Notes: generated by a model not told the origin, from the sequence alone. Shown: positions 19,725 through 59,675, counted from the stretch's first letter. The stretch is 64,000 nucleotides of DNA from Candidatus Niyogibacteria bacterium (GCA_016181935.1 JACOYI010000002.1:63961-127960); one strand, 5' to 3'. A program made the numbers and translations.

Positions 19725-21398
19725 GTGGCGAAAAATAACGACATCGAAAAAAAGCTCGAAGAATTTCGCGCCAAAGAGGCGGAGGATTTCGCCGAACTCA
19801 TGGCGCAGAAATACGGCGTTCCGTATCTCGACCTGTCGCGCACCACGATCGACCTCGACGCCTTAAAACTCGTGAGCCAGCCGGATGCCGAAGCCGGCAA
19901 AATGGCGGTCTTTCAAAAAACCGCGCGTCGGCTGCGCGTCGGCGCTTTCAATCCGACGCTCCCGAAAGCCAAAGAGATCCTTGAGAGCCTTGAACGCAAG
20001 GGGTATCAACTAGAACTTTCCGTTGTTTCCGAACCGAGCCTGAAACGCGCATGGTCGCGCTACGCCGAAATAGCGGCATTCGAGGAAATGACCGCGGGCA
20101 CGCTCGATATTTCCGCCTCTCGGCTTGAGGAATCCATTGCCAAGATCAAAGCCATCGCGGATTTTCAAGAACTGATACTCCCGTTTACGGGAGCGTCCAA
20201 GATCAAGAACGTGAGCGAGGTGCTGGAGTTCATTCTTGCGGGCGCATTGGCGCTGGACGCGTCGGATGTTCACCTGGAACCGCAGGAAAAAGCGGTTGCC
20301 ATGCGATTTCGTCTGGACGGCGTCCTTTCCGAGGTCGCCACATTCACTGCCGCGGCCTATGCGCTCCTGTTATCGCGCGTCAAATTGACGGCGGGGATGA
20401 AGCTCAACGTGAAAGACCGCGCGCAGGACGGCCGTTTTACGATCCGCACGACGCAAACGGAGATCGAGGTTCGCGTCTCATCGCTCCCCGGCCCGTACGG
20501 CGAGACCATCGTGATGCGCGTGTTGAATCCGAAAACCATCGCGCTGACGCTCGAGGATCTCGGACTGCATCCCGAACTCCAAAAAATCGTTAAAAAAGAA
20601 TTGAAAAAGCCGAACGGCATGATCCTGACCACCGGTCCCACGGGTTCGGGAAAAACCACGACGCTCTACGCGTTCGTCAAAGCCGTGAACGAACCGGGCG
20701 TCAAGATCATCACCATCGAGGACCCCATCGAATATCACATCCCGGGCATCAGCCAAACGCAGGTGGACGCATCCAAAGGATATACGTTCGCGAACGGCCT
20801 GCGCAGTATCTTGCGCCAAGACCCCGACACGATCTTGGTGGGCGAGATCCGAGACCTCGAAACCGCCGAGATCGCGATGCATGCGGCGCTGACCGGCCAT
20901 TTGGTATTTTCGACGCTCCACACCAACAGTGCGGCGGGCACCATCCCGCGGCTCATTGACCTTAAGGCCGATCCCGCGATCATCGCGCCCGCCATCAATA
21001 TCGCGATGGCCCAGCGCCTCGTGCGCAGACTTTGTCCGCATTGCAAAAAAGAAACTGCGCCGACAGCAGACGAAAAAAAACTGATCGAGGATGCGCTCAA
21101 AAAAATGCCGTCCAAATACAAAAAAGACGTGAAAACCAAAGATCTTCGCGTTTGGAAAGCCGGAGGATGCCCAAAATGCAGCACATTGGGCTACAAGGGC
21201 CGGATCGGCATCTATGAGGCGTTTTTGGTGGACGACGCGGTGGAACGGCTGATTCTGAAAAAGCCGGCGGAAGGCGACCTGCGCGAAGCCATGGAACGCC
21301 AAGAAATGATGACCATGATGCAGGACGGCATTCTGAAGGCGCTTGATGGATTGACTTCGATGGATGAGCTGATCCGCGTGGCCGGTTTACCCACCTAA
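19725..21398 (+). CDS. pilB: Type IV pilus / type II secretion assembly ATPase (PilB/GspE family)
   Basis: GTG start. N-terminal GSPII_E_N domain, Walker A LTTGPTGSGKTTTLYA, Asp/His boxes and a C-terminal CxxC…CxxC zinc motif (CPHC…CPKC). Confidence 0.9.
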   Translation: MAKNNDIEKKLEEFRAKEAEDFAELMAQKYGVPYLDLSRTTIDLDALKLVSQPDAEAGKMAVFQKTARRLRVGAFNPTLPKAKEILESLERKGYQLELSVVSEPSLKRAWSRYAEIAAFEEMTAGTLDISASRLEESIAKIKAIADFQELILPFTGASKIKNVSEVLEFILAGALALDASDVHLEPQEKAVAMRFRLDGVLSEVATFTAAAYALLLSRVKLTAGMKLNVKDRAQDGRFTIRTTQTEIEVRVSSLPGPYGETIVMRVLNPKTIALTLEDLGLHPELQKIVKKELKKPNGMILTTGPTGSGKTTTLYAFVKAVNEPGVKIITIEDPIEYHIPGISQTQVDASKGYTFANGLRSILRQDPDTILVGEIRDLETAEIAMHAALTGHLVFSTLHTNSAAGTIPRLIDLKADPAIIAPAINIAMAQRLVRRLCPHCKKETAPTADEKKLIEDALKKMPSKYKKDVKTKDLRVWKAGGCPKCSTLGYKGRIGIYEAFLVDDAVERLILKKPAEGDLREAMERQEMMTMMQDGILKALDGLTSMDELIRVAGLPT

Positions 21399-31884: not shown

Positions 31885-33246
31885 TCAGGATTTATCGTCT
31901 TCATAAAGGTGTGACCGAATGGTTTTCATTTCCTCCCGAAGCCGCTCATCTTTTTTCAAATCATTCGAAATTTTCAAATATGCATGGATGGCGGTTGTAT
32001 GGTCGCGGCCGCCGAATTTCTGGCCGATATAGGGATATGAGCCGCTGAAATCCTCCCGAAGCAGATACATGGCGATCTGCCGCGGACGCACAACTTCTTT
32101 GCGCCGCGTTTTTTCGAACAAAAACCGCTCCGGAACATCATAGAATTGGGCGACCGATTTGATGATGTGCTGAGCGGAAAGGGATTTTCGGGGTTTTGTG
32201 TTTTTGGAGAGGATCTCCTTGACTTCTTCCGCGGAGAGCGGGCGGCGGCGTATCTTGGAGTTGGCGACGATCGTATTGAGCGCCCCCTCCAGTTCCCGGA
32301 TATTGGTTTGAATGACCGACGCGATGTACTCCAAAATATCGGCTGCCGGCCGATATTCCTCCTTTCCGGCCGTTTTCGCTTGTAAGATCGCAAGTCGTGT
32401 TTCGTAATCCGGCTCCACAACATCCGCCATCATCCCCCCTTCAAAACGGGAGCGAAGGCGGTCGTCCAGATTAATGATGGATTTTGGCGCCCGATCGGAT
32501 GAAAAAACGATCTGTTTCGAGGCCTCCGACATCGCGTTGAAAATATGGAACATTTCCTCTTGGGAGGCGGTCCGGTTCGCGATGAATTGAACGTCGTCCA
32601 AGATCAGGAGATCGAATGAGCGGTATTTTTCTTTGATCGCCTCTTTTTCAGATGGCGTTCGAATGGCGAACATAATGTCGTTCGCGAAACGTTCCGTGCT
32701 TACATAATAGACCCGCTTTGCAGGAAAAAGAGCGCGCGTTTGATTGCCGATCGATTGCAATAAATGGGTTTTTCCAAGCCCAACCCCCCCATAGATATAG
32801 AGAGGGTTATAGGCGAGCCCGGGTTTTTCGGTAACCGCAAGAGCGGCCGCATGCGCGATCTCATTGAAGCGCCCGACAATGAACGTATCGAATGTGTATC
32901 GAGGATTGAGGTTGGTGTCTTTGTCCACATATAGCTCACGGAAATCCATCTGCTCTTCGTGCGGCTTCGGCGGCGGCGTTTTTGAGGGCGGGAGCATGGA
33001 TTGGGAGAGGATCGAGAATTCGATCGAGCGCACTTCCGGCGCGTGCGTTCGCAGATGCTTCAAAACAAGTTTTAGATATTTATTTTCAAGCCACTCTTTG
33101 ACGAACGCGGACGGCGTTCCAACCATGATCTTGCCGTTCAACTGATCCAAGATCGCGGTTTGTGCGAACCACGTTGCAAAATTTGCGGGCGAAAGCTCGA
33201 TTTCGATGTCGTGGAGAGTTAGTTTCCAAAGCTCTTCATTGGTCAT
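31885..33246 (-). CDS. dnaA: Chromosomal replication initiator DnaA
   Basis: AAA+ Walker A GGVGLGKTHLLQ, DnaA signature and a C-terminal HTH domain. The start was chosen at MTNEELWKL; the ORF could extend to 33291. Confidence 0.9.
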   Translation of the reverse strand: MTNEELWKLTLHDIEIELSPANFATWFAQTAILDQLNGKIMVGTPSAFVKEWLENKYLKLVLKHLRTHAPEVRSIEFSILSQSMLPPSKTPPPKPHEEQMDFRELYVDKDTNLNPRYTFDTFIVGRFNEIAHAAALAVTEKPGLAYNPLYIYGGVGLGKTHLLQSIGNQTRALFPAKRVYYVSTERFANDIMFAIRTPSEKEAIKEKYRSFDLLILDDVQFIANRTASQEEMFHIFNAMSEASKQIVFSSDRAPKSIINLDDRLRSRFEGGMMADVVEPDYETRLAILQAKTAGKEEYRPAADILEYIASVIQTNIRELEGALNTIVANSKIRRRPLSAEEVKEILSKNTKPRKSLSAQHIIKSVAQFYDVPERFLFEKTRRKEVVRPRQIAMYLLREDFSGSYPYIGQKFGGRDHTTAIHAYLKISNDLKKDERLREEMKTIRSHLYEDDKS

Positions 33247-33384
33247 AGCGAGTTTATTATAAATTTTCCGTGTTCTGTTCCGAAATCGCAAAATCCCAAT
33301 TAAACCTTACTATATATGTTAATAACGTGTGGATACGGTGGAAAGATTGTGCAGTGCCCGAGCGTGTTGTAGAATGAAAAAACC

Positions 33385-35232: not shown

Positions 35233-36411
35233 CTATTCCGTGAGCGCGTAACTCCACAGCGAGTGGTTTTCCTTTTCCATAAAATAAAGAAAAGCGTCGT
35301 CGTCGGAGATCTCGAGTTTTTCAATATCAAAGAACCGGCCGACGGGGAGAATGACGTTCTCCCTTGTTTTCGTATTGATCTTCCATATAAGATCGCGCAA
35401 CTCGATCACCCCTTGCAGCCATTCGTCGGGATAGATCCCGCGCGGCGGATTTGAGTCGTTCGCGCAATAAATGATATCGGCATCGCGTCGCGAAAATGCG
35501 CATTGCGAGGCCATAGCGGCAACGGACAGGTTTTGCGGCGTTCCCGTTTCCGGCGCGAAGAAAAGCTCGGGTTTGCGGTTTTGTTCGTTGTATGAAGAGT
35601 AGACGAATGAACGGCCGGCAGGCGAAAGTTTGATCTCGAGCCCCAAAACGCCGCCCAAACGCTTTATGAGCGCGCCGGTTCGCGTGTTATAGGCAAAGTA
35701 AAATCCTTCCGCGACCCCCGAAGGCCGGTTTACGAGCGCGAATGTGTCGTTTGTGGGCCACAACAGCGCAAAATCCTGAAAGGCGAAGTTCGCGATACGG
35801 CGCTGACCCGTGTTGTCGGCTTTTGCGGTTATGAGGTCGGCTCCATCGCCCGACGGCAGGAGATAAGCGAACTCGGCGCCCGCCGGAGAGAACGCGCTAT
35901 CCAATAGGAGCGACGAGAGTGGGATCGCTTGGGTCGAGCTTGCGGAAAAGGTTGCCGCAACCACGCGCAGCGCGTCGCCCTCGAAGTATTTAAGGATGGC
36001 GCGCGCGGCGCCCTGCGCCCACAACGCATCAAAAACTTTAGGGATCGTGGTATTGGAAATGCGCAATTTCGTTTCCCCCTGCGGACTCACATCGAATACA
36101 TGGCCGGTTTGGCGCTCGATATAGCGAACGCCCGTAGTGCCGGTGATACCGAACCCTGCGACCGCCTCTGCGGACAAAAGCGTAAGCGCCATGCGTGGTA
36201 CTCCTTCCGTTGGTGGAGCCGAGATTCCTCCTTCGGTTGGTGTTACCTCCTCGCCGCCAAGACCGAAGATGTTGAACGGGAATCGGCGCACAATGCCCCG
36301 TTCCGGTTCCGGAATTTCCGCGGGCAGAGGACGAAAAACAAGCCAAAATGCGCCTCCGGCGATCATGAGGATGAAAAAGATGATAAGTCCGAGCGCGAGT
36401 GGTTTATTCAT
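35233..36411 (-). CDS. Hypothetical secreted/membrane-anchored protein (possible beta-propeller, TolB-like)
   Basis: N-terminal TM (LALGLIIFFILMIAGGAFWLV). The C-terminal region is repetitive and beta-rich. It is the last gene of the T4SS-like operon. Confidence 0.4.
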   Translation of the reverse strand: MNKPLALGLIIFFILMIAGGAFWLVFRPLPAEIPEPERGIVRRFPFNIFGLGGEEVTPTEGGISAPPTEGVPRMALTLLSAEAVAGFGITGTTGVRYIERQTGHVFDVSPQGETKLRISNTTIPKVFDALWAQGAARAILKYFEGDALRVVAATFSASSTQAIPLSSLLLDSAFSPAGAEFAYLLPSGDGADLITAKADNTGQRRIANFAFQDFALLWPTNDTFALVNRPSGVAEGFYFAYNTRTGALIKRLGGVLGLEIKLSPAGRSFVYSSYNEQNRKPELFFAPETGTPQNLSVAAMASQCAFSRRDADIIYCANDSNPPRGIYPDEWLQGVIELRDLIWKINTKTRENVILPVGRFFDIEKLEISDDDAFLYFMEKENHSLWSYALTE

Positions 36412-36424
36412 TGATTATTTGTTT

Positions 36425-37072
36425 CTATTTCGGTAATCCGCAACAGCGAAATCCCACCGGTGGTATTGAAGAGCAAGCCCCGGGCGCCGACACCCACCCA
36501 CCGCCGATGCTTTCGCAGGTTTGGGTGCTGGGAACGGCATTCGTTTGTTGATAATTCCCAGGCGGGCTGGTTTCAGCGCATAGGCCCGGCGTTGGAAGGT
36601 CTGGGCTTCCGCAGTAGGAATTACACTCACTTTCTGTTGCAAAGCTTCTTTCCTCCCCCGTAGGGCACACCCATGTTGTTGTGTCTATTCCCAGCGGTTG
36701 CGGCGGGCGCAACGATACGAGTTCCGGATTAATGGTGTTGAGAATAAGGAACGAAAGAAACGCAAGGATCAATCCGCCGACCGCCGCGGTGATGCGCTTT
36801 TTTGCAGCCTCCACTTGCGGAGGAGAAATGGCTCCGGTCATCCATTGAAAGCCCGCAATAACAATGACAAATACGGAAAGCAGGGTCGCGGCCGCAAGCA
36901 TTAAACGGAAAAGCCACGGCAGAAATTCGATAAAATTATCAAATTGGGGAGCTGGGGGTTGGGCGATCTGGGTGATCGGTTGCGCCTGAACAATGGCGGT
37001 CAAGAGCGAAAAAATGCCCATGGCGGCAAGGATCGTAATAGCGATAAAACAGCGATTATTGAACCGCAACAT
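36425..37072 (-). CDS. Putative T4SS pilin-like protein (VirB2/TrbC-like topology) with a Cys-rich C-terminal extension
   Basis: Signal peptide (…AIVQAQP) followed by two hydrophobic helices, as in TrbC/VirB2 pilins. A ~90-aa tail holds 9 Cys (…CPTGEE…CNSYCGSPD…CAETS…CESIGG…CSSIPPVGFRCCGLPK). Confidence 0.4.
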   Translation of the reverse strand: MLRFNNRCFIAITILAAMGIFSLLTAIVQAQPITQIAQPPAPQFDNFIEFLPWLFRLMLAAATLLSVFVIVIAGFQWMTGAISPPQVEAAKKRITAAVGGLILAFLSFLILNTINPELVSLRPPQPLGIDTTTWVCPTGEERSFATESECNSYCGSPDLPTPGLCAETSPPGNYQQTNAVPSTQTCESIGGGWVSAPGACSSIPPVGFRCCGLPK

Positions 37073-38069
37073 AAAATGATGTTTGGATCTGCTGCAAAAT
37101 ATTCACCGTATTTTGGATTTCGGCGCGGACAGAAACCGTTCCTACTGTTCCCCCCCCGCTTTTCAAACGTAACACCCCGCCCGGAGCCGCTGCAGCCGCT
37201 TGCCCGTCCACAGACCACGAGAAATTCAGCGATTCGCGGTTGTTGAATGTTGAGAAGAAAAAAGGAACTGCGCGGAATTCTTTGTCGTCATTCCGATTCA
37301 TGGAGAACGGCCGCGCCGTGCTTAATGCGCGCGCCGCGCGCACCCCTTCGAGCGGGCGCTCTTCATAAAAAAGGACTTTCGGCGATTCGACGTCAATAAA
37401 AGATGTCTTTGCCGCTGTTATGCTGTTTGATGGAGTTGAGACCTCAACCGCCACTTCATGCACGATCGTGCTGGCCTCTCCCGCTTGGAACGCAAATGTC
37501 TGTCTGCCTGCGCCCGAAAGCGCCTTATTGAATTTTCCGTCGAGCGTCCACTCGTAGATAAGCTGGGAGGCGGGAATTTCCCGACCTCCGCTTACGAGAT
37601 GCGGAATGGCGCTCACGATAACACGGGAGCGCGGGGACGCCAAACGCTTTCCTGCGTACCACGGGGGCGCGGTGGTTTGGGCGCGCCAAAGAAGGTCAAT
37701 ATCGCCGATACGGAACGACAGAGAGGCCTCGCGCGTTTTGCCGTCGGGCGCCGTTGCGACCGCGCGAAGGGCCTCTTCCGAGCCAGTGCCGCGCGCGGAG
37801 AATGTATAGGTGCGGAGCCCTGCGCCGTCCGCGACGCGCTGCCCGTTCCGGAACCACTGGATGCGCGCGCTTTGCAGGTCAACGGAAAAGCCGGTGAGCG
37901 TAGCGGTTACGGATTGGTTGGGGCCCGGGTGCTCGGGGAATAGGTTGATCGTGAGCGTGTTGAATCCGGTTTGCTGGGGAAGCGCCAATTGCGCGTGCGC
38001 TGATGCGGCGGCCAACCAGAGACCGGCCATGATCACGACAGCATACAAAATAAATGGAAGACGGTTCAT
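37056..38069 (-). CDS. Hypothetical secreted protein
   Basis: Signal peptide (…LWLAAASAHAQ). 337 aa with no recognizable domain. Start and stop overlap the neighbouring genes. Confidence 0.4.
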   Translation of the reverse strand: MNRLPFILYAVVIMAGLWLAAASAHAQLALPQQTGFNTLTINLFPEHPGPNQSVTATLTGFSVDLQSARIQWFRNGQRVADGAGLRTYTFSARGTGSEEALRAVATAPDGKTREASLSFRIGDIDLLWRAQTTAPPWYAGKRLASPRSRVIVSAIPHLVSGGREIPASQLIYEWTLDGKFNKALSGAGRQTFAFQAGEASTIVHEVAVEVSTPSNSITAAKTSFIDVESPKVLFYEERPLEGVRAARALSTARPFSMNRNDDKEFRAVPFFFSTFNNRESLNFSWSVDGQAAAAAPGGVLRLKSGGGTVGTVSVRAEIQNTVNILQQIQTSFYVAVQ

Positions 38070-38482
38070 GATTTGCGGTTATCGTGAATGATCCAGAGAA
38101 CCATCAGCGTATAGGTGGGGATAAGATCGCCGAAGGGAATGATCTCTATAGCGCCCGTAAGACCCCAGAACGGCGGTCGGCGCAATCCTTGGGAATAGAC
38201 CCAAAGCAGGATGATCCCCCACGTGGCGCCATCCAGAATGTCGCCGACAACGGGAATGGAGCCGATAATAAAATAGTCCAGCGTATCGTTGATCATGGCG
38301 ACCGCGAGCACGAGGTTAGCGATGAACATGTTCATACTTACTTGGCGCGCGGGAGCGGTCTCGTCGCCGGCGTCTTCCGGTCCTTCTTCGGCCTCTTCTT
38401 CATTTGCGAGCTTCGCTTGCCGCGCTTGGGCAAGCTCGAAGGCGCGCATCTCTTCGTCGATCGCTATCGTTCCGTTTGGCAT
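38066..38482 (-). CDS. Hypothetical membrane protein
   Basis: 138 aa with an acidic N-terminus and 3 predicted TM helices. Overlapping stop/start junctions tie it into the operon. Confidence 0.4.
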   Translation of the reverse strand: MPNGTIAIDEEMRAFELAQARQAKLANEEEAEEGPEDAGDETAPARQVSMNMFIANLVLAVAMINDTLDYFIIGSIPVVGDILDGATWGIILLWVYSQGLRRPPFWGLTGAIEIIPFGDLIPTYTLMVLWIIHDNRKS

Positions 38483-38485
38483 GGT

Positions 38486-40306
38486 TTAAGGATTGGTCGC
38501 CGCATATTCTTCTTTTGCCTGCTTGATCGCCGCAAGCTGGCTCGGGTCGGATGTGATGATCTGGTCTTCGGTATACGAACCGATGATCTTGATGGCCACG
38601 TGTTTAAGGCCGGCAAAAAACAACCCCTCTCCCACATCGGATTCCAAGATCAGGAATTTTTCCTCGTCCGTCAGATTGAATGTTTTTTGCACCTCATCAA
38701 TGGTCGCGGGCGACTGTTTGAGCAGGAGTTGGATCGAGGAATTCGTGATGATGGGAATGCCGTAGGGTGATTTCAAAAAATCGCCGACGTCCTGCGTGAT
38801 GGTGCAGACACCCAAGAAATATTTGCGCGCGCGCTTTGCGATGCCAAAAAGGAATGACGCCCCGTCTTCGCGCTTCATGATCCACCATGCCTCGTCGATC
38901 ACCAACAGGCGTTTTTTGATCTCTTTGCGGATCGCCGCCCAGATGTAATTGATGATGAGATACATCGCGACGGGCCGCAGTTCGTCCTCCATGTCGCGCA
39001 CCGAGAATACGATGAATTTTTTATTGATATCCACGTTGGTCGGCTGGTTGATGAATCCGGCCCACGTGCCCGACGTGTATTTATGAAGCCGTCCCGCGAG
39101 CGATTCCCCGCCCTCCATGTTGGCGAGCACCAATTCCAGATCCGAAAGGATGGGCGGTATCTTGCCCGTAAAATCCGTATTCGGCGTGATGTCACGCGAT
39201 GCGTACGTTTCGGTAATGGCGCGGTCCAGAACCGCATCTTCTTCGGGTGTAAGGCCGCCCAACATGATGCGGAAGAGCCCCACCAGATTGATGATGGTGG
39301 AACGAAGCACGTCCGTCGGGTCTTCGTCCTCGCGCGGAACCGGAAGTTCGAACGGGTTGATGTGGTGCGGGGAATTCAACGAGATATTGAAATAGCGGCC
39401 GTCCACGGCTTCCGCCAAGTGTTCATATTCGCGCTCAGGATCAATGACGATGACCTCGGTGTCGAACATCAAACTTCGCAAAATTTCGAGCTTGGTCGTG
39501 TAACTTTTACCCGAACCGCTTTTCGCAAAGATCACCGAATTGTAGTTTTCGAGCGAGAATCTGTCGAACAGGACCAAGCTGTTATTATGGCGGTTGACGC
39601 CGTAGAGAATTCCTTTATTGGACGTGAGATCGAATGAAACGAACGGGAAAATAGAAGAAACCGGTGAGGAATTCAGGCGGTTGGTGACTCCCAAACGATC
39701 CCTGCCCAGCGGGAACACCGTTAAGAGCCCTTCGGATTGCTGAAAAAGCGCGGGTTTTGCATACACGAGTTTGGATTGGAGCATGGAACGGATCTCAGAT
39801 TCCTCGCGGTCGAGTTCTTCGATCGAATCCGAATAAATCGTGATGTAAAAACCGAACGAAAAAAGCCGTTCTTGCGCCTGTTGGAGTTTGTCGCGCAAGT
39901 CCTCCAGATTTTGATAGGCGGCGTCGAGCATCGGGTCGCGGACCAGCCCTTTTTCCTCGCGGTCATGGATCTGCGACTGGACCTCCGCCACCTTCTTTTG
40001 GAGCTGACGCAGGACGGTTGCCGTATCGATCGGGTGGATATAGAGCGAGATATCGAATACCTTATCGAGATTGATGACGGGACTGAACCAATTGATGGAT
40101 AAGAATCGCGGGTAGGAAAAAACAAAAAGCGTTCGCGCGACTTTTTCGCCGAGTTTGACGTGATTGGCCGTGATCTCAAGCGCGGAGGGCGCGATCACGT
40201 CTTTTAATTCAAGGCGCGCGGCCTCGTAAATTTGTTCGGGCTGGATGGAGATGATCTCCTCCTCCGTTCCCGTTTTTTTCTTTTTAAATAGATCGTGTAA
40301 TGCCAT
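38486..40306 (-). CDS. virB4: VirB4/TrbE/CagE-family type IV secretion ATPase (ATPase body)
   Basis: Walker A VIFAKSGSGKSYTTK, Walker B LLVIDEAWWIM and a DUF87/AAA-like fold. The start was chosen at MALHDLFKKKK so that the upstream ORF ends just before it. Confidence 0.8.
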   Translation of the reverse strand: MALHDLFKKKKTGTEEEIISIQPEQIYEAARLELKDVIAPSALEITANHVKLGEKVARTLFVFSYPRFLSINWFSPVINLDKVFDISLYIHPIDTATVLRQLQKKVAEVQSQIHDREEKGLVRDPMLDAAYQNLEDLRDKLQQAQERLFSFGFYITIYSDSIEELDREESEIRSMLQSKLVYAKPALFQQSEGLLTVFPLGRDRLGVTNRLNSSPVSSIFPFVSFDLTSNKGILYGVNRHNNSLVLFDRFSLENYNSVIFAKSGSGKSYTTKLEILRSLMFDTEVIVIDPEREYEHLAEAVDGRYFNISLNSPHHINPFELPVPREDEDPTDVLRSTIINLVGLFRIMLGGLTPEEDAVLDRAITETYASRDITPNTDFTGKIPPILSDLELVLANMEGGESLAGRLHKYTSGTWAGFINQPTNVDINKKFIVFSVRDMEDELRPVAMYLIINYIWAAIRKEIKKRLLVIDEAWWIMKREDGASFLFGIAKRARKYFLGVCTITQDVGDFLKSPYGIPIITNSSIQLLLKQSPATIDEVQKTFNLTDEEKFLILESDVGEGLFFAGLKHVAIKIIGSYTEDQIITSDPSQLAAIKQAKEEYAATNP

Positions 40307-40311
40307 AACGA

Positions 40312-40959
40312 CTATGTTCTCATTTGGGGCGCTCGCCCTTTTTCTAATTCTCCGGGATTGAAATAGCCGTAAAAAAGTTCGACCAATTCCTCGGTATTCA
40401 ACGGCACTGTGCGTACGCCCGTGGACGCGAGCGCACCCGAAACCGTCTCGACTCTCTGCCATAGCTGGGAGCGGTATTCCTCGAATTTTGCATCATCAAA
40501 GCGCTTGGCGTCCGCCGGTTTCCCCCCGAACATTCCGCGCACCCCCTTTCCGATCTCGATCGCCGGCGGCGCGAACGAGACCACGATATAGAAATTTTTC
40601 GTGACGATCTTGGTGGTTTGGACGAATGTGCGGACGAACTCGATATATTCGCGCGTCTGGATCTTTAAGAGATCATTCGACTGCGCCCGCTCGGCTTCGC
40701 GGAGAGTTTCAAGGTAGGGCTCGATGTTCAAGTGGCGCGATTGGATGATGATCTCGACCGAAAAATCAAGCGCGTTCAAAAAGTTCTGGTATTGCGCCGT
40801 GATCGCCTCCTGTTCGTCGGCCGAACGCAGGCCAAAATTGAGCGCAGAGGCCATCAGCACCATGTGCATGTGATGATCGTCCGTGATCATCACGCCGTCG
40901 CGGATCTCGCGAATCGGGACGAATTCCTGCGCCGCTTTTCCTTTGGTGGGATTGGGCAT
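40312..40959 (-). CDS. VirB4 N-terminal-domain-like protein (split VirB4?)
   Basis: EFVPIREIRDGVMITDDHHMHMVLMASALNFGLRSADEQEAITAQYQNFLNAL resembles the N-termini of Gram-positive conjugative VirB4 homologs. Summed with the ATPase ORF the length is about 820 aa. Confidence 0.45.
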   Translation of the reverse strand: MPNPTKGKAAQEFVPIREIRDGVMITDDHHMHMVLMASALNFGLRSADEQEAITAQYQNFLNALDFSVEIIIQSRHLNIEPYLETLREAERAQSNDLLKIQTREYIEFVRTFVQTTKIVTKNFYIVVSFAPPAIEIGKGVRGMFGGKPADAKRFDDAKFEEYRSQLWQRVETVSGALASTGVRTVPLNTEELVELFYGYFNPGELEKGRAPQMRT

Positions 40960-40962
40960 ACC

Positions 40963-41367
40963 CTATTTTACCTTTTCTTTAACATCCAAACTCCATGCCA
41001 GGTCTTTTAATTTGCCTCTCGTAACCTTGGGAACTTCAAGCTTTGGACCTTCGGTCTTCGCGCCCGCCGGTTTCTCCGATTCCGTCTCGCCTCTTTTCCA
41101 AATGTAGAGCCGAGAGCCGAGGTAATAAGAGATCGCATTGCCAACGACTTTGATGAAGGGTTGGTTGTTTATCTTGTAAAAGGCAAGCGCCAATGCGAAT
41201 CCCGCGACCGGAAGTCCGAACAAAATGACGAGAAAAAACGGGAGAAAAACATACAAAATGAATACGGACGCGGCACCCCCCAGCAGATACACGAACTGCT
41301 TGAGCGTAAGCGGCCCGAAAATTTTATCCTCGACATCAATGAATTGGGGAACGTCGAATTGTCTCAT
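40963..41367 (-). CDS. PrgI/VirB3-like small membrane protein
   Basis: MRQFDVPQFIDVEDKIFGPLTLKQFVYLLGG followed by 2 TM helices. This is the PrgI-family pattern and the gene sits immediately upstream of VirB4. Confidence 0.5.
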   Translation of the reverse strand: MRQFDVPQFIDVEDKIFGPLTLKQFVYLLGGAASVFILYVFLPFFLVILFGLPVAGFALALAFYKINNQPFIKVVGNAISYYLGSRLYIWKRGETESEKPAGAKTEGPKLEVPKVTRGKLKDLAWSLDVKEKVK

Positions 41368-41945: not shown

Positions 41946-44309
41946 CTATATGGCAGGTCCGCGGGGCGGAATGCGCGTGTACGGCCCCGCAATCTCAATG
42001 GTCGGTTTCTCGAGGGGCTGCTGTGACTCGGTCGAAATGCCGGCCTCTTTTAATTCATCGCGGTAGGCGCCGCCGCGAACGCTGGCCGCAAGCGCTGGAT
42101 TTCCTGCCCTAGCAATGGAATCTGCCAGCTCATCCGTGGTTTTCCCGAGCGTTTTAAACGCCTCAATCATTTTTTCTGCCGCATCCCCTCCTTCCTCAAA
42201 AACACCTTTCACTGTTTTTCGGCTCAACTGTTTTACGACTTCTTCGGCGCGCGCCGGGTTTTTCATATCCGCGACAGTTGCCGAGCTGAAAACAGTTTGT
42301 TTTTCAATAGAGATGCCCGCCGCTTCCAAAATCGGCCGGCCGGCATTGCTGCGGAACCATCCGGCAAGCGTTGTATTGCCGACCTCTTCCAGCCCGTTCG
42401 CAACGTCATCCATGGTTGTTCCCATAGAGCGCAATCCCGCCGCTAATGCTTTAGCCGCATCTCCGCCCTCGTTTATGATATCTACAAGGAGTTTCGGGCT
42501 GGTAACGCCCCTAAAGACCTCCTGCGCGTAGGCTTTGTTTTTCAAGTCTTCCGCCGTCGCGTATTGGAATTCGAGCGCATCTGCGTCTTTTGTGCTGATG
42601 CCGTAATCGCGCATGTATCTCTTGTTTTGTTCGATGGCGCTGCGTGTGAACCCAATGCTTTCATCGAGTTTCAAATCTCTTCGTTTAGCAAGAATGTCCA
42701 TGATAGCCGCTTTTGTGGCGGGATCGAATGACGAGCGAAGCATATCTTTTAATTCATCTGTCGAGCGCTTGTTCAATTTTTCTTCCCGATCCAGAACAGC
42801 TTTTTTGTGTTCATTAAGGACCACATTTGCGCCGCGCTGGACAAGGCCCCCGCCGAGCCATTTTGCTGCGGGCTTGCGAAGTTGTCGCGCGAGCCACGGG
42901 GCCTCGATTTTTTGCCCGCCGAACATCTTTTCCTTGCCAACCGCCTTTTCCGCGAGTAGGCTACTCCCCGCAAGCGTCACGCGGCGCAACCCGTGCCGCC
43001 ACGCAACTCCGGGGGCTGCGCGCGTATATCCGCGCAGGCGCCCGATCGCTTTATCTGCGATGGAAGCGGACACCCCGCCCATTTTTTTGGCAAATCCTAG
43101 GGCAAAGAGGAGCATCATCACGAGCAGGATGTAATACATGACGAGCTGGAAATTCGAAATGAAGGATTTGTTCACGGAAGGATCAGCTCCCATGGTAAGT
43201 CGAACAAAGGGGTTCGCGATCATATTGACGGTGATGGAGAAGAAAAAGAAAAACCCAACGGGCCAGAGCGCGTTCGATACGAGTTTTGAGAGCCATTCGC
43301 GCGCATAGCTCTGGAGCGCGGGCAGGGTCCAGAAGAAAAAGGCGATGGGAGAGGCGATCATCAAAAACCAGAGCATGACAATGCGGACAAGAAGCATGAT
43401 GGCGACCGTAAAGAGAACAAAGGTGGCGACCGCAAGAAAAATAATAACGCCGATCATGGAGACGATGACTTGGGTGAATAGGCCTTCGGCGCCCTTCTCG
43501 AGACCTTGTTGTTGGGCAAGGAGTTGATTTTCCACGCCTTTTAAAGTTTCCAAATAGCCTTGTTGTTCTGGGGTAAGATCTCCTCCAAATGCATGCGTTC
43601 CCGTTGTTTTCCCGATTTCCTCTTGAACCGCTTTTAGGCTCGCATTTACCGCCGCCAATGAATCCGCATTGTTGTTTTCAAACGACGCAAAAAGGATATT
43701 CGGATTGACGCCCGTCACGAATTTTGCGGAAAAGGACGGCGTTGTCGCGCCCGTTCCGATCCCCGGCACAAAAAGCCGCGCGAAAAGATTCGATGATATG
43801 ATGATGTATTGCGTGAGCGCAAAGGAAAAATTAATGAAAAGCGCAACGATGATGAGACGGGCGAGCAGCCGTTTTGCGCCGTATGCTTCGAATTGGAGAA
43901 TGGTCGCGATGGCAATGACCAAAAGAACGAAAATGAAAAAAAGATTGACGGTATCGCGCGCGACAACCCACCCGGCATAGATTGCCGGCACTTGATACAT
44001 ATCGGGATTGAGCGTGAAAGCAATGACCGTATCAATAAGATTGCCGGCCAAGATAAAAAGCTGACTGACGGCCTGAAGAACGAAATAAACGAGCCACGCG
44101 AGCCACGATCCGACGCAGATGCCAAAAATATTCTCGCAGTGCGTGATCTGCGTGATGATGTTCGTGGCATCCGAGCGCGTTCCCTGCGCCAGGGCGTCGG
44201 ATAGCGGCAATAACACAAATATGCCGAGCGCGAGCACGAACACCGCTATATACAGAAACGACAATCGGAGCGGAAAAAGCTTTTTCATGAATATTAGAGC
44301 GCCTGACAT
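41946..44309 (-). CDS. VirB6/TrbL-like polytopic membrane protein with a C-terminal repeat domain
   Basis: About 400 aa of multi-TM region, then a ~350-aa hydrophilic tail with reiterated motifs (EGGDAAKA…, EAAGISIEKQ, KEAGISTESQ, DYGISTKDAD). Confidence 0.5.
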   Translation of the reverse strand: MSGALIFMKKLFPLRLSFLYIAVFVLALGIFVLLPLSDALAQGTRSDATNIITQITHCENIFGICVGSWLAWLVYFVLQAVSQLFILAGNLIDTVIAFTLNPDMYQVPAIYAGWVVARDTVNLFFIFVLLVIAIATILQFEAYGAKRLLARLIIVALFINFSFALTQYIIISSNLFARLFVPGIGTGATTPSFSAKFVTGVNPNILFASFENNNADSLAAVNASLKAVQEEIGKTTGTHAFGGDLTPEQQGYLETLKGVENQLLAQQQGLEKGAEGLFTQVIVSMIGVIIFLAVATFVLFTVAIMLLVRIVMLWFLMIASPIAFFFWTLPALQSYAREWLSKLVSNALWPVGFFFFFSITVNMIANPFVRLTMGADPSVNKSFISNFQLVMYYILLVMMLLFALGFAKKMGGVSASIADKAIGRLRGYTRAAPGVAWRHGLRRVTLAGSSLLAEKAVGKEKMFGGQKIEAPWLARQLRKPAAKWLGGGLVQRGANVVLNEHKKAVLDREEKLNKRSTDELKDMLRSSFDPATKAAIMDILAKRRDLKLDESIGFTRSAIEQNKRYMRDYGISTKDADALEFQYATAEDLKNKAYAQEVFRGVTSPKLLVDIINEGGDAAKALAAGLRSMGTTMDDVANGLEEVGNTTLAGWFRSNAGRPILEAAGISIEKQTVFSSATVADMKNPARAEEVVKQLSRKTVKGVFEEGGDAAEKMIEAFKTLGKTTDELADSIARAGNPALAASVRGGAYRDELKEAGISTESQQPLEKPTIEIAGPYTRIPPRGPAI

Positions 44310-45805
44310 GCGGTAATGGATGCGTTGTAATCCGCAAGCGCCGCCTGTAGCGCTGTCGTTGCATTTTCGGCCTCGGCAAGCGCGTCTTCGCCGATCGAGC
44401 TCGCGATGGTCGTTGCGGTTTCGGCTTCAAGTTCATCCATATTGCTCAACTTGCTTTCCGTAAGGATCCGGCTTTGAAGCACGGTCAGAGCTTGCGTACG
44501 CGTTCGCGAGCGCTGAATATCAGCGACAACAATTTGCAATTGCGCCGTGTAGGTATCGGTATCCGTTTGGAGGTCTTGACCGCTACAGGCCTCGAGCGTC
44601 TCGATCTGCGTAAGGATCGTTTGAATGGTGTTGAGAGAGGTTTGCTTTTCGTTCCTGTAGTCATTTTCACGCGCCAGCACCGGATTGAGATCTGCGAGCA
44701 GAGTCGTGCGGCGCGCCTGTAATTCTTGGAAATTCGCCTGCTCTTCTTCAAAGCTCGGGGAATCGCTCAATCCCTCGATCAGCGGCTTTACGATCAATTG
44801 GCCGACCAAGGCGGATATAATGGCGTTGATGGATTCTGCGAGATACAGCTCATTCATTTGCGCCTGCGTATTCGCGTTAAACATACCGACAATGGCGGCG
44901 CCCGGCGTTTTGTTTTCGTATTTCGCGCAACCGAATTCCTCGCTACGCTCATAAATAGGGATTTGATTGAACGGATTATTGGGGTCGGGTTCCATGCCGA
45001 CGCGTCCCTTGTTGTATTCAACGCACTCTTTGAACGCGAAGAATCCTTGGCTTGCCTGTGCTTCGTCACGATTTGCTTCAAATGTCGAAAGCGCCTGCGC
45101 ATGGAGTTGGTCCCAACGTACAAGAAAACTTCCGAATGCGTTATTGTTCACGTTCGCCGTAATGGTGATAAAAGACGCCCATCCGCCGGTAAGGAAGTTT
45201 TGATACATTTCGGTTACGTTTTCGACGATATCGGAAATCGTACAGCGCGGCCGCGGCACGCGGAATTCAAAAAGGTTGAGAATGATTTCGATCCGGAATG
45301 GACTGCAAACGGCATCCAATTGATCCGGCGTGAGCAAGCTTTCCAAAAAATAGCCGGAGGCGGTGTCAGCCGCATTCAGGGCGGATGTTCGGAAATCCTG
45401 AACAAACAGCGGTCCGCCTTCCGGAAATCCTGAATTGATCCAATTCACAATGTCGCCGGTCATCTCGACAATAATTGCGCGAAGGATGCTTTTGCCAAGA
45501 ACCTCAAAAATGTCCTTTCTCGCGCATTCTTCCCAGTCGAAAAGGTTGTAAACACAAATCGCGAGCAACGCTCCGATCGCTGCGCCCGCGAATTCCTCGG
45601 GATGTTCGGCTATCGCGTCTGCGGCTTCATTGGCGATGGCGAAGGCAATATCCGGACTTCCGCCAAAAGGACTCATAATAGTGATAAGATCGCCGAGTCC
45701 GCCATCCCCGAGCTGCGCATAAGCGGTTTTTGGCGCAAAAGCGCTCGGGATGAGCCCCACGAGCATTGTGATCAAGAGAAGGGCGGCAATAAATTTTCGC
45801 GTCAT
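44294..45805 (-). CDS. Hypothetical secreted protein with a C-terminal coiled coil
   Basis: Signal peptide (…LIPSAFAPKTAYAQ). 503 aa; the C-terminal 150 aa are coiled-coil-like. Second gene of the operon. Confidence 0.4.
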   Translation of the reverse strand: MTRKFIAALLLITMLVGLIPSAFAPKTAYAQLGDGGLGDLITIMSPFGGSPDIAFAIANEAADAIAEHPEEFAGAAIGALLAICVYNLFDWEECARKDIFEVLGKSILRAIIVEMTGDIVNWINSGFPEGGPLFVQDFRTSALNAADTASGYFLESLLTPDQLDAVCSPFRIEIILNLFEFRVPRPRCTISDIVENVTEMYQNFLTGGWASFITITANVNNNAFGSFLVRWDQLHAQALSTFEANRDEAQASQGFFAFKECVEYNKGRVGMEPDPNNPFNQIPIYERSEEFGCAKYENKTPGAAIVGMFNANTQAQMNELYLAESINAIISALVGQLIVKPLIEGLSDSPSFEEEQANFQELQARRTTLLADLNPVLARENDYRNEKQTSLNTIQTILTQIETLEACSGQDLQTDTDTYTAQLQIVVADIQRSRTRTQALTVLQSRILTESKLSNMDELEAETATTIASSIGEDALAEAENATTALQAALADYNASITACQAL

Positions 45806-59648: not shown

Positions 59649-59675
59649 CCCCGGCTTCGGCCGGGGATTTTTTTA
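59649..59675. terminator. Bidirectional terminator
   Basis: CCCCGGC-TTCG-GCCGGGG followed by ATTTTTTTA. It overlaps the stop of the Cys-rich gene on the opposite strand. Confidence 0.55.

What the first reader, a model, noticed from the sequence alone, without database searches (positions are those of the whole stretch)
36425..37072. Pilin-topology protein with a nine-cysteine C-terminal extension
A signal peptide plus two hydrophobic helices matches VirB2/TrbC pilin topology. A ~90-aa Cys-rich tail (CPTGEE…CNSYCGSPD…CAETS…CESIGG…CSSIPPVGFRCCGLPK) is not a usual pilin feature. It could form a disulfide-knotted tip or adhesin module displayed on a pilus.
Basis: inference. Interest (0 to 1): 0.55.

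Follow-up and report, generated by a model that had tools for sequence, protein, structure and literature searches.

The report
Patescibacterial T4SS pilin with cysteine-rich tail

Summary
The ORF at 36425-37072 (minus strand, 215 aa) is real. It is identical to a hypothetical protein of a Candidatus Niyogibacteria MAG. It has a signal peptide (cleavage predicted after VQA30), two hydrophobic helices joined by a KKR loop, and a roughly 95-aa tail. The tail holds eight cysteines, not nine; the ninth is Cys8 in the signal peptide.

The helical hairpin belongs to the VirB2-like PF18895 "T4SS_pilin" family. The gene sits in the known chromosomal Patescibacterial T4SS cluster (VirB6-like, PrgI, TrsD/TraC-like, VirB4), about 3 kb from dnaA.

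The tail matches no Pfam, PDB-sequence or fold-library entry. In 1.84 billion representative proteins it has one real homologue, which keeps all eight cysteines.

Among the 73 complete genes from the 80 closest species-representative loci, 69 also carry tails (median 206 aa). These fall into 48 unrelated sequence groups. Their cysteine counts are overwhelmingly even (39 even, 5 odd), and some tails are peptidoglycan hydrolases.

So the tail is very likely extracellular and disulfide-bonded. It is a hypervariable cassette on a conserved pilin scaffold. A role in host adhesion is inferred, not shown. I rate it a new variant of a known kind and moderately interesting.

The parts
36425..37072 (-). 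Whole gene: VirB2-like T4SS pilin with a Cys-rich C-terminal tail (215 aa plus stop)
36983..37072 (-). Residues 1-30: Sec-type signal peptide (n-region with R3 and R7, hydrophobic core 8-28 including Cys8, predicted cleavage VQA|QP)
   Evidence: Hydropathy. A small-x-small site is conserved at the aligned position in homologues. Cleavage is predicted, not shown.
36827..36922 (-). Residues 51-82: first pilin helix / TM1 (includes the invariant AGFQW motif)
   Evidence: AF2 helix 47-79 with pLDDT 74-87.
36794..36826 (-). Residues 83-93: short loop SPPQVEAAKKR. It is positively charged, predicted cytoplasmic in the membrane form, and would face the lumen in a pilus.
   Evidence: Sequence. Positive-inside rule. 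A positively charged lumen-facing loop is reported for conjugative pili (PMC11722321).
36725..36793 (-). Residues 94-116: second pilin helix / TM2, ending in the invariant LNTINP motif
   Evidence: AF2 helix 84-114 with pLDDT 86-90.
36674..36724 (-). Residues 117-133: Pro-rich linker (ELVSLRPPQPLGIDTTT)
   Evidence: Sequence; low pLDDT
36578..36673 (-). Residues 134-165: 4-Cys module A (WxC-x13-C-x3-C-x10-C). The same module occurs once in P0002 and L005 and four times in tandem in L010.
   Evidence: A helix is predicted over ESECNSYC.
36518..36577 (-). Residues 166-185: S/T/P/Q-rich linker with no cysteine
   Evidence: Sequence
36428..36517 (-). Residues 186-215: 4-Cys module B (C-x13-C-x9-CC-GLPK). 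It is shared only with P0002.
37056..38069 (-). Upstream neighbour g337: secreted protein (signal peptide AHA|Q) of unknown function, translationally overlapped with the pilin gene. Homologues occur in 36 of 80 related loci.
35233..36411 (-). Downstream neighbour g392: N-terminally membrane-anchored beta-propeller-like protein. Homologues occur in 38 of 80 related loci.
   Evidence: Matches to designed 'Cake' propellers.
38066..38482 (-). g138: small membrane protein, conserved in the six Niyogibacteria-type loci checked (L001, L005, L006, L008-L010) and in 7 of the 80 related loci
38486..40306 (-). VirB4-type ATPase. The likely start is Met53 of the 658-aa ORF, which gives about 606 aa.
   Evidence: NF045971 at 374 bits against a cut-off of 325. 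PF19044. 78-86% identity to Niyogibacteria-type orthologues.
40312..40959 (-). TrsD/TraC-like protein (a VirB4 N-terminal domain encoded as a separate gene)
   Evidence: It is also a separate gene in relatives (PF26593).
40963..41367 (-). PrgI / VirB3-like protein
   Evidence: PF12666 at 41.2 bits against a cut-off of 27
41946..44309 (-). Extended VirB6/TrbL-like polytopic membrane protein
   Evidence: PF04610 at 28.9 bits against a cut-off of 25.9
31885..33291 (-). dnaA, which marks the origin-proximal chromosomal position of the cluster
   Evidence: The same synteny is seen in L001 and is described in PMC12102498.

Best explanation
The gene encodes the single VirB2-like (PF18895-type) pilin of the chromosomal, origin-proximal type IV secretion system of a Candidatus Niyogibacteria (Patescibacteria/CPR) bacterium.

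Proposed mechanism, step by step:
1. The precursor is inserted by Sec/YidC, and the signal peptide is cut after Ala30.
2. The two helices form a membrane hairpin. The KKR loop lies in the cytoplasm, and both the mature N-terminus and the C-terminal tail lie outside.
3. The roughly 95-residue tail folds outside the cell into two small 4-Cys modules joined by flexible Pro/Ser/Thr linkers. Each module is probably locked by two disulfides made by the MdbA/VKOR-type oxidoreductases that are common in CPR.
4. The VirB4 ATPase extracts pilin from the membrane and polymerises it, as in conjugative pili. The loop then faces the lumen and the termini face outward, so each subunit displays its tail on the filament surface. 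The tail is not confined to the tip.
5. The tail is a lineage-specific, rapidly replaced cassette. It most likely mediates contact with the host or partner cell surface (adhesion or specificity). In relatives the same position carries cell-wall hydrolases.

Steps 1-3 rest on sequence and comparative evidence. Steps 4-5 are inferred.
For: Identity and context:
- Sub-threshold but concordant hits to PF18895, PF04956 and NF045849.
- A profile of the hairpin retrieves PF18895-annotated proteins at E about 1e-30, and 68 of 79 relatives hit PF18895.
- AF2 models a helical hairpin with pLDDT 74-90.
- The cluster contains VirB4 (above the NCBIfam cut-off), TrsD, PrgI and VirB6-like genes next to jag-yidC-dnaA-dnaN.
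- The same arrangement occurs in a complete Niyogibacteria genome and is described for Patescibacteria in PMC12102498.

Tail outside the cell:
- The positive-inside rule places the tail outside.
- Relatives carry SLT, VanY, M15, NlpC/P60, YkuD and lysozyme-like domains at the same position. These must reach peptidoglycan.

Disulfides:
- The tail has 8 Cys against a 0.4% background (P about 5e-9).
- All eight are kept in P0002 at 46% identity.
- Across 48 unrelated tail clusters, cysteine counts are even in 39, odd in 5 and zero in 4 (p=1.4e-7).
- CPR are enriched in MdbA-like oxidoreductase and VKOR (10.1101/335083).

Hypervariability:
- VirB4 is 78-86% identical, the pilin domain 48-71%, and the neighbours 32-60%. 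The tail has no tblastn hit in any related locus.
- It has one true homologue among 1.84e9 representatives.

Single pilin gene:
- Only one pilin-domain gene is present in the window and in the orthologous clusters.

Biological relevance:
- T4SS pilins are essential for epibiotic growth in a cultivated Saccharibacterium (PMC10633639; PMC12857230).
Against: - No pilus has been seen for any Niyogibacteria, and polymerisation is assumed by homology.
- The Pfam hits of this protein itself are below the gathering thresholds.
- The tail could not be modelled with confidence (pLDDT below 50 in the full-length run and 60 for the tail alone), so the disulfide pattern and fold are unknown.
- No thiol-oxidoreductase gene was found within this 64-kb window by a simple CxxC scan.
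- A roughly 10-kDa head on every subunit would pack tightly on a tube 74-87 A wide (diameters from PMC9905601; the packing estimate is my own).
- Relatives with tails of 400-770 aa cannot plausibly be major shaft subunits. This weakens the generalisation 'tail = pilus decoration'.
- C-terminal processing of VirB2-type propilins is known (PMC11722321).
Confidence: 0.6

Rival explanations
1. Membrane-anchor reading. The pilin-like hairpin never polymerises. It acts as a two-helix membrane anchor, or as a fixed structural subunit of the T4SS channel, and tethers the Cys-rich domain at the cell surface next to the secretion machine. In relatives it would tether cell-wall hydrolases in the same way.
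For: - Many relatives carry large tails (up to 771 aa) or enzymes (SLT, VanY, NlpC/P60, YkuD) that seem incompatible with being a shaft subunit.
- T4SSs of monoderm bacteria generally lack pili (PMC12102498; PMC10633639).
- The conserved neighbours g337 (secreted) and g392 (membrane-anchored beta-propeller) suggest a surface complex.
Against: - The hairpin keeps the conserved pilin motifs (AGFQW, LNTINP) and the basic loop typical of polymerising VirB2-type pilins.
- It is the only pilin-like gene in the cluster, so if a pilus exists it must be built from this protein.
- Reviews regard Patescibacterial T4SSs as potentially piliated (PMC12857230).
Confidence: 0.22
2. Propeptide or released-cargo reading. 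The tail is cleaved off during maturation, as happens at the C-terminus of RP4 TrbC (27 residues) and R27 TrhA (5 residues). It is then either discarded or released as a small disulfide-rich secreted peptide (effector, toxin or signal).
For: - C-terminal processing is documented for VirB2-family propilins (PMC11722321).
- A Pro-rich linker (residues 117-133) separates the hairpin from the tail.
- The tail is compact, Cys-rich and evolves fast, like many secreted effectors.
Against: - No TraF-like or S26-type maturation peptidase and no other protease was detected among the cluster proteins scanned.
- Known propeptides are 4-27 residues, not 95-770.
- Enzyme domains fused at this position in relatives argue for a functional attached domain.
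Confidence: 0.12
3. Metal-site reading. The four-cysteine modules bind a metal (a zinc-ribbon-like site) instead of forming disulfides.
For: - The tail-only search picked up RanBP2-type zinc-finger repeat proteins (P0013, P0014), which share W-x-C-P...F-A-S...C-x-x-C-G-x-P with residues 133-158.
- Each module has exactly four cysteines.
Against: - The first knuckle lacks its second cysteine in all seven module copies, and the second knuckle is C-x3-C rather than C-x2-C.
- Pfam zf-RanBP does not score even at E<=10.
- The domain is predicted to be extracellular.
- The family-wide even-number rule fits disulfides, although counts that are multiples of four would also be even.
Confidence: 0.05
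4. The ORF is not a real gene, or the tail is an artefact of a frameshift or misassembly.
For: None was found.
Against: - The identical protein occurs on three independent contigs.
- The position between g337 and g392 is conserved in orthologous loci.
- A homologue conserves all eight tail cysteines.
Confidence: 0.01

Closest known systems
Patescibacterial (CPR) T4SS VirB2-like pilins, Pfam PF18895 T4SS_pilin (Wang et al. 2023, PMC10633639; Quinonero-Coronel et al. 2025, PMC12102498)
   Same: - Signal peptide plus helical hairpin with a basic loop and the LNTINP end motif.
- Encoded next to VirB4, TrsD, PrgI and VirB6-like genes near dnaA in a monoderm, ultrasmall bacterium.
- No relaxase or coupling protein was found among the cluster genes scanned.
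   Different: - The described pilins are treated as small proteins, often in arrays of 2-11 paralogues. The papers I could read do not mention C-terminal extensions.
- Here there is a single pilin gene with a 95-aa, 8-Cys orphan tail.
Classical conjugative pilins VirB2 / TrbC / TraA (Pfam PF04956)
   Same: - Long signal peptide and two hydrophobic helices.
- A positively charged inter-helix loop that lines the pilus lumen, with the termini outside.
- Dependence on a VirB4 ATPase.
   Different: - Classical mature pilins are about 7-8 kDa (TrhA is 7.1 kDa) and have no extra domain.
- Some lose 4-27 C-terminal residues or are cyclised.
- They act in diderm envelopes with an outer-membrane core complex, which is absent here.
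- The match to PF04956 is only 18.6 bits against a cut-off of 27.9.
Mbov_0395 family pilin-like conjugal transfer protein of Mycoplasma ICEs (NCBIfam NF045849)
   Same: A small two-helix pilin-like protein of a monoderm MPF-FATA-type T4SS. It gives a weak hit over residues 51-114 (E=1.3e-4).
   Different: - The score of 21.6 bits is well below the cut-off of 40.
- That family belongs to mobile elements and has about 80 residues with no tail.
RanBP2-type zinc finger / zinc ribbon
   Same: Local motif resemblance of module A (W-x-C-P ... F-A-[ST] ... C ... C-G-x-P).
   Different: - One zinc ligand is missing, and the spacing is C-x3-C.
- There is no Pfam hit.
- The predicted location is extracellular.
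- I treat this as resemblance only.

Membership tests
VirB2/TrbC-type T4SS pilin superfamily (PF04956 / PF18895) | N-terminal signal peptide followed by two hydrophobic helices separated by a short basic loop | tested here: met
   - Hydropathy segments at 8-30, 52-82 and 93-115, with a KKR loop.
- AF2 helices 47-79 and 84-114 with pLDDT 74-90.
- An AxA-type site is conserved in homologues.
VirB2/TrbC-type T4SS pilin superfamily (PF04956 / PF18895) | Profile match above the curated threshold | tested here: not met
   - PF18895 scores 20.4 bits against a cut-off of 26.6. PF04956 scores 18.6 bits against 27.9.
- The link is transitive only. A profile of this hairpin retrieves PF18895-annotated proteins at E 1e-30 to 1e-20 with 48-53% identity, and 68 of 79 relatives hit PF18895 at E<=1e-3.
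VirB2/TrbC-type T4SS pilin superfamily (PF04956 / PF18895) | Encoded together with a VirB4 ATPase and other mating-pair-formation genes | tested here: met
   - VirB4 lies 1.4 kb upstream. TrsD, PrgI and a VirB6-like gene are in the same operon.
- VirB4 is within 6 kb in 49 of 80 related loci.
VirB2/TrbC-type T4SS pilin superfamily (PF04956 / PF18895) | Small mature subunit with no additional globular domain | tested here: not met
   The mature protein is predicted to be 185 aa, of which about 95 aa form a Cys-rich tail after LNTINP.
VirB2/TrbC-type T4SS pilin superfamily (PF04956 / PF18895) | Polymerises with lipid into an extracellular tubular filament | not testable with these tools
   This needs microscopy or biochemistry. 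No Niyogibacteria culture is known to me.
Patescibacterial chromosomal T4SS (MPF-FATA-related; PMC12102498) | VirB4 of the monoderm type, with a separate TrsD/TraC-like N-terminal protein and PrgI | tested here: met
   - NF045971 (CD1110 family) at 374 bits against a cut-off of 325.
- PF12666 PrgI.
- The TraC-like protein is also a separate gene in relatives.
Patescibacterial chromosomal T4SS (MPF-FATA-related; PMC12102498) | Chromosomal location near dnaA/dnaN/rnpA/ksgA, with no relaxase or coupling protein in the cluster | tested here: met
   - DnaA, DnaN, YidC, Jag and RsmA/KsgA flank the cluster.
- No relaxase or T4CP family was detected among the cluster proteins scanned.
- The rest of the genome was not available.
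RanBP2-type zinc finger (considered for tail module A) | Two zinc knuckles, C-x2-4-C ... C-x2-C | tested here: not met
   All seven module copies have one Cys in the first knuckle and C-x3-C in the second. There is no Pfam hit at E<=10.
   - Pfam: 0 families at E<=10.
- PDB sequences: nothing below E 0.6.
- Foldseek against PDB: nothing at E<=0.001 for either model. The best E-values were 0.1 for the full-length model, from generic helical-hairpin matches, and 4.4 for the tail-only model.
Diversity-generating retroelement target (considered as a cause of hypervariability) | A template repeat about 90% identical to the 3' variable region, plus a reverse transcriptase nearby | tested here: not met
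   The tail DNA has no second copy in the 64-kb window beyond chance 11-12-mers, and there are no tandem repeats.

The most novel reading that the evidence does not exclude
In Patescibacteria the PF18895 pilin hairpin is a general display scaffold. T4SS filaments, or the T4SS surface apparatus, are built from subunits that each carry an exchangeable extracellular head. The heads are disulfide-rich binding modules such as the one here, or peptidoglycan hydrolases in other lineages. The heads determine which host cell is recognised and breached, and they diversify by cassette replacement. This would be a decorated conjugative-type pilus in a monoderm, a type of filament not described so far.
Probability: 0.2. 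Interest if true: 0.8.

Novelty: new variant of a known kind. Interest (0 to 1): 0.55.

Why it matters
The Patescibacterial T4SS and its pilins are essential for epibiotic growth in the one system tested (PMC10633639). What the machine transports and how it recognises a host are open questions (PMC12857230).

The pilin scaffold is conserved. Its outward-facing C-terminus carries a hypervariable, disulfide-rich or cell-wall-degrading domain in most close relatives. If that holds, the tail is the obvious candidate for the host-specificity determinant. It also gives a concrete handle for testing:
- tail swaps;
- binding assays with recombinant tails;
- correlating tail type with host in metagenomes.

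It would also extend the structural repertoire of VirB2-type pilins, which are otherwise bare helical hairpins.

Tried and rejected
1. Known domain in the tail. Pfam at E<=10, PDB sequence search, and Foldseek against PDB with two AF2 models gave nothing usable. Both tail models were low confidence, so the fold searches have little weight.

2. Wider family for the tail.
- phmmer of the tail against 1.84e9 representatives found only itself, P0002, two RanBP2-finger repeat proteins and one spurious repeat protein.
- A profile of the 4-Cys module against the 5.8e9-protein collection found nothing significant. A 45-residue profile cannot reach significance at that database size, so this is uninformative rather than negative.

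3. Zinc-ribbon interpretation. Rejected because the defining ligands are missing.

4. DGR or repeat-driven variation. There is no template repeat and no tandem repeat.

5. Disulfide-forming enzymes in the window. A CxxC scan found only a PilB-type ATPase zinc motif and non-genic frames. This is uninformative, because the window is a small fraction of the genome.

6. Using to estimate how common tails are. That search returned only proteins of 142 aa or less, apparently because of a length or coverage bias with the 81-aa query. It shows that short pilins exist but cannot give a frequency. The genome scan is the better sample. It is still biased, because it takes the 80 best matches to this particular hairpin.

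7. Mobile-element origin. Rejected because of the housekeeping synteny.

Full report

The minus strand of 36425-37072 carries a 215-codon ORF. Its product is identical to a protein annotated only as hypothetical in a Candidatus Niyogibacteria MAG, and it is seen on three contigs.

Kyte-Doolittle scanning gives three hydrophobic stretches, at residues 8-30, 52-82 and 93-115.
- The first follows two arginines and ends in VQA|QP. The aligned homologues have VLA|Q, VFA|A, VFA|E, ALA|E and LWA|S at the same place. I therefore predict a cleaved Sec signal peptide. This is a prediction, because no dedicated predictor was available.
- The loop between the other two helices is SPPQVEAAKKR.

The tail after the invariant LNTINP motif is 99 residues long. 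It contains eight cysteines (136, 150, 154, 165, 186, 200, 210, 211).

Eight Cys in 94 residues compares with 18 in 4552 residues in the twelve neighbouring proteins. This gives P of about 5e-9. The hairpin itself has no cysteine.

**2. What is the hairpin?**

Direct Pfam and NCBIfam hits are weak and below the curated cut-offs:
- PF18895 T4SS_pilin, 20.4 bits
- PF04956 TrbC, 18.6 bits
- NF045849 Mbov_0395 pilin-like, 21.6 bits

They all cover the same hairpin. A profile built from the hairpins of the first homologues (A2) retrieves 86 proteins, most carrying a precomputed PF18895 annotation, at E down to 1e-32. It finds only this ORF in the window. Of 79 relatives, 68 hit PF18895. AlphaFold2 models residues 47-79 and 84-114 as a helical hairpin with pLDDT 74-90.

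**3. Context**

The gene is the second-to-last in a minus-strand operon. In order, the genes are:
- PcrA
- RsmA/KsgA
- a TSP3-repeat protein
- a secreted 503-aa protein
- an extended VirB6-like protein
- a 187-aa protein
- PrgI
- a TrsD/TraC-like protein
- VirB4 (above the NCBIfam cut-off for the CD1110 family)
- a 138-aa membrane protein
- a secreted 337-aa protein
- the pilin
- a membrane-anchored 392-aa beta-propeller-like protein

On the other strand, jag and yidC follow, and then come dnaA and dnaN.

A complete Niyogibacteria chromosome has the same order (L001), and a Paceibacterota MAG has a looser version (L003). This is the chromosomal, origin-proximal T4SS of Patescibacteria described in PMC12102498. 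In Southlakia epibionticum its pilins and core genes are essential for epibiotic growth (PMC10633639; review PMC12857230). The rest of the window holds housekeeping genes, so this is not a mobile element.

**4. What is the tail?**

It matches nothing curated. Pfam gives 0 families at E<=10. The PDB sequence search gives nothing.

A full HMMER scan of the tail against 1.84 billion cluster representatives finds one true homologue, P0002. It is 46% identical over the tail, and all eight cysteines are conserved. The same scan also returns two RanBP2-finger repeat proteins, whose repeats resemble residues 133-158, and one spurious hit.

The zinc-finger resemblance fails the defining test. One ligand is missing, and the spacing is C-x3-C instead of C-x2-C.

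Inspection and a small HMM show that residues 134-165 form a four-cysteine module, [WY]-x-C-x(11-17)-C-x3-C-x(8-16)-C. It occurs once in P0002 and in another Niyogibacteria pilin (L005/P0003). It occurs four times in tandem in a third (L010). The second half (C-x13-C-x9-CC-GLP) is shared only with P0002.

The tail-only AF2 model has a mean pLDDT of 60 and places a helix over the C-x3-C segment. Fold searches with it are empty.

**5. The family picture changes the interpretation**

I scanned one genome per species (GTDB) with the hairpin profile. This gave 488 loci, of which the best 80 were retrieved.
- Of the 73 complete genes in which the motif was found, 69 have tails longer than 25 residues. 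The median is 206 aa and the longest is 771 aa.
- 58 of those 69 tails have four or more cysteines.
- The 69 tails fall into 48 groups with no detectable similarity to each other. The parity of their cysteine counts is 39 even, 5 odd and 4 zero (p=1.4e-7).
- Some tails are recognisable peptidoglycan enzymes: SLT, VanY, Peptidase_M15, NlpC/P60, YkuD and lysozyme-like.

Three conclusions follow.
- (a) The C-terminus after the second helix is extracytoplasmic.
- (b) The cysteines pair as disulfides. This is feasible because CPR genomes are enriched in MdbA-like oxidoreductases and VKOR (10.1101/335083).
- (c) A tail on this pilin scaffold is the rule among this protein's closest relatives, not an oddity. 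The particular tail here is nearly unique.

Short, tail-less PF18895 pilins also exist in numbers. I could not determine the true proportion.

**6. Hypervariability**

Conservation within the orthologous clusters is as follows.

| Segment | Identity to orthologues |
|---|---|
| VirB4 | 78-86% |
| TrsD | 56-77% |
| Pilin hairpin | 48-71% |
| g337 | 41-60% |
| g392 | 32-59% |
| Tail | no tblastn hit in any of the related loci |

The tail is therefore the fastest-changing segment of the operon. No DGR-type template repeat or tandem repeat explains this.

**7. Mechanism**

The topology (N-terminus out, basic loop in, tail out) holds whether or not the signal peptide is cleaved.

In solved conjugative pili, the positively charged inter-helix loop lines the lumen and the termini lie at the exterior surface (PMC11722321). 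I add from memory, not re-read here, the F-pilus structure of Costa et al. 2016. By homology, a filament made of this protein would display one tail per subunit along its whole length.

This is the only pilin-domain gene in the window and in the orthologous clusters. A tip-only role is therefore not supported.

My rough packing estimate uses pilus diameters of 74-87 A (PMC9905601) and an axial rise of about 2.4 A per subunit, recalled from memory. It gives about 660 A2 of surface per subunit at the tube wall and about 870 A2 one domain radius further out. A 10-kDa domain has a cross-section of about 640 A2. That is tight but possible for this tail. It is implausible for the tails of 400-770 aa in other lineages.

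So some family members are likely minor subunits or non-polymerising anchors. The anchor reading remains a serious rival for this protein too. A third rival is C-terminal processing, as in RP4 TrbC and R27 TrhA.

A function in host contact fits three things: surface exposure, rapid turnover, and hydrolase fusions at the same position. It is nevertheless inference.

**8. Verdict**

The protein is a member of a known kind, the Patescibacterial T4SS VirB2-like pilin. It has an orphan, probably disulfide-bonded, extracellular tail.

The broader pattern is a conserved pilin scaffold with exchangeable heads, either cysteine-rich or cell-wall-lytic. I did not find it described in the papers I could search. 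I could not consult domain-architecture databases.

I rate it a new variant of a known kind, with moderate interest.

Noticed in passing
Related loci L011, L022, L027, L029, L032, L056, L059, L073, L082 (one tail cluster); L034, L041, L060, L062 and others: In other Patescibacteria, PF18895 pilin hairpins are fused at the C-terminus to peptidoglycan-acting domains. The Pfam hits are SLT x3, VanY x2, Peptidase_M15, NlpC/P60, YkuD, Lysozyme_like and Phage_lysozyme2, plus LTD and TIG. The largest tail cluster (9 species) shares an ITGGTE-x-GH motif, and I read it as likely M15/VanY-like. I did not map the Pfam hits to individual loci. Pilin-hydrolase fusions were not mentioned in the T4SS survey I read.
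   Followed up: partly
window 37056-38069 (-) and 35233-36411 (-): The pilin gene is flanked by a secreted 337-aa protein and a membrane-anchored 392-aa beta-propeller-like protein, which matches designed 'Cake' propellers. Homologues of both accompany the pilin in 36 and 38 of 80 related loci. This conserved triad of unknown function could be pilus assembly or tip factors.
   Followed up: partly
window 38486-40462 (-) versus 40312-40959 (-): The mechanical VirB4 ORF (658 aa) overlaps the TrsD/TraC-like gene by 150 nt and looks like a frameshifted VirB4. Comparison with relatives shows two separate genes are normal. The likely VirB4 start is Met53 (about coordinate 40306), 6 nt after the TrsD stop.
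   Followed up: yes
window 44294-45805 (-): The 503-aa protein upstream of the VirB6-like gene has a signal peptide (AYA|QLG) and also contains exactly eight cysteines, in an operon that otherwise almost lacks cysteine. It has no Pfam hit, and none of the 80 related loci has a homologue at E<=1e-5 (L001 does, at E=8e-36).
   Followed up: no
window 59673-61430 (-): A 585-aa ORF has many CxxC and CxxCxxC motifs (for example CRSCDSCFGS and CNACEDCFGC) and no Pfam family at E<=1e-5. It may be a repeat-containing Cys-rich protein of unknown function.
   Followed up: no
window 19725-21398 (+): A T2SSE/PilB-type ATPase (PF00437, E=1.6e-117) lies about 15 kb from the T4SS cluster. The window therefore also carries part of a type IV pilus or T2SS-like system, the other surface machine implicated in the epibiotic lifestyle.
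   Followed up: partly
L010 5869-6825 (+) (Candidatus Niyogibacteria JACQLG010000072.1): This orthologous pilin has a 205-aa tail made of four tandem copies of the same 4-Cys module that occurs once in the window protein (16 Cys in total). Module number therefore varies between close lineages.
   Followed up: yes
Loci L015, L018, L026, L039, L046, L069, L074: Several contigs carrying Patescibacteria-type pilin genes are labelled 'uncultured Gammaproteobacteria' or 'Bdellovibrionales' in their record titles. Several of these (for example L015, L039, L046) also carry a VirB4 homologue within 6 kb. This is probably mis-binning or mis-labelling of the MAGs rather than real occurrence in those phyla.
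   Followed up: no
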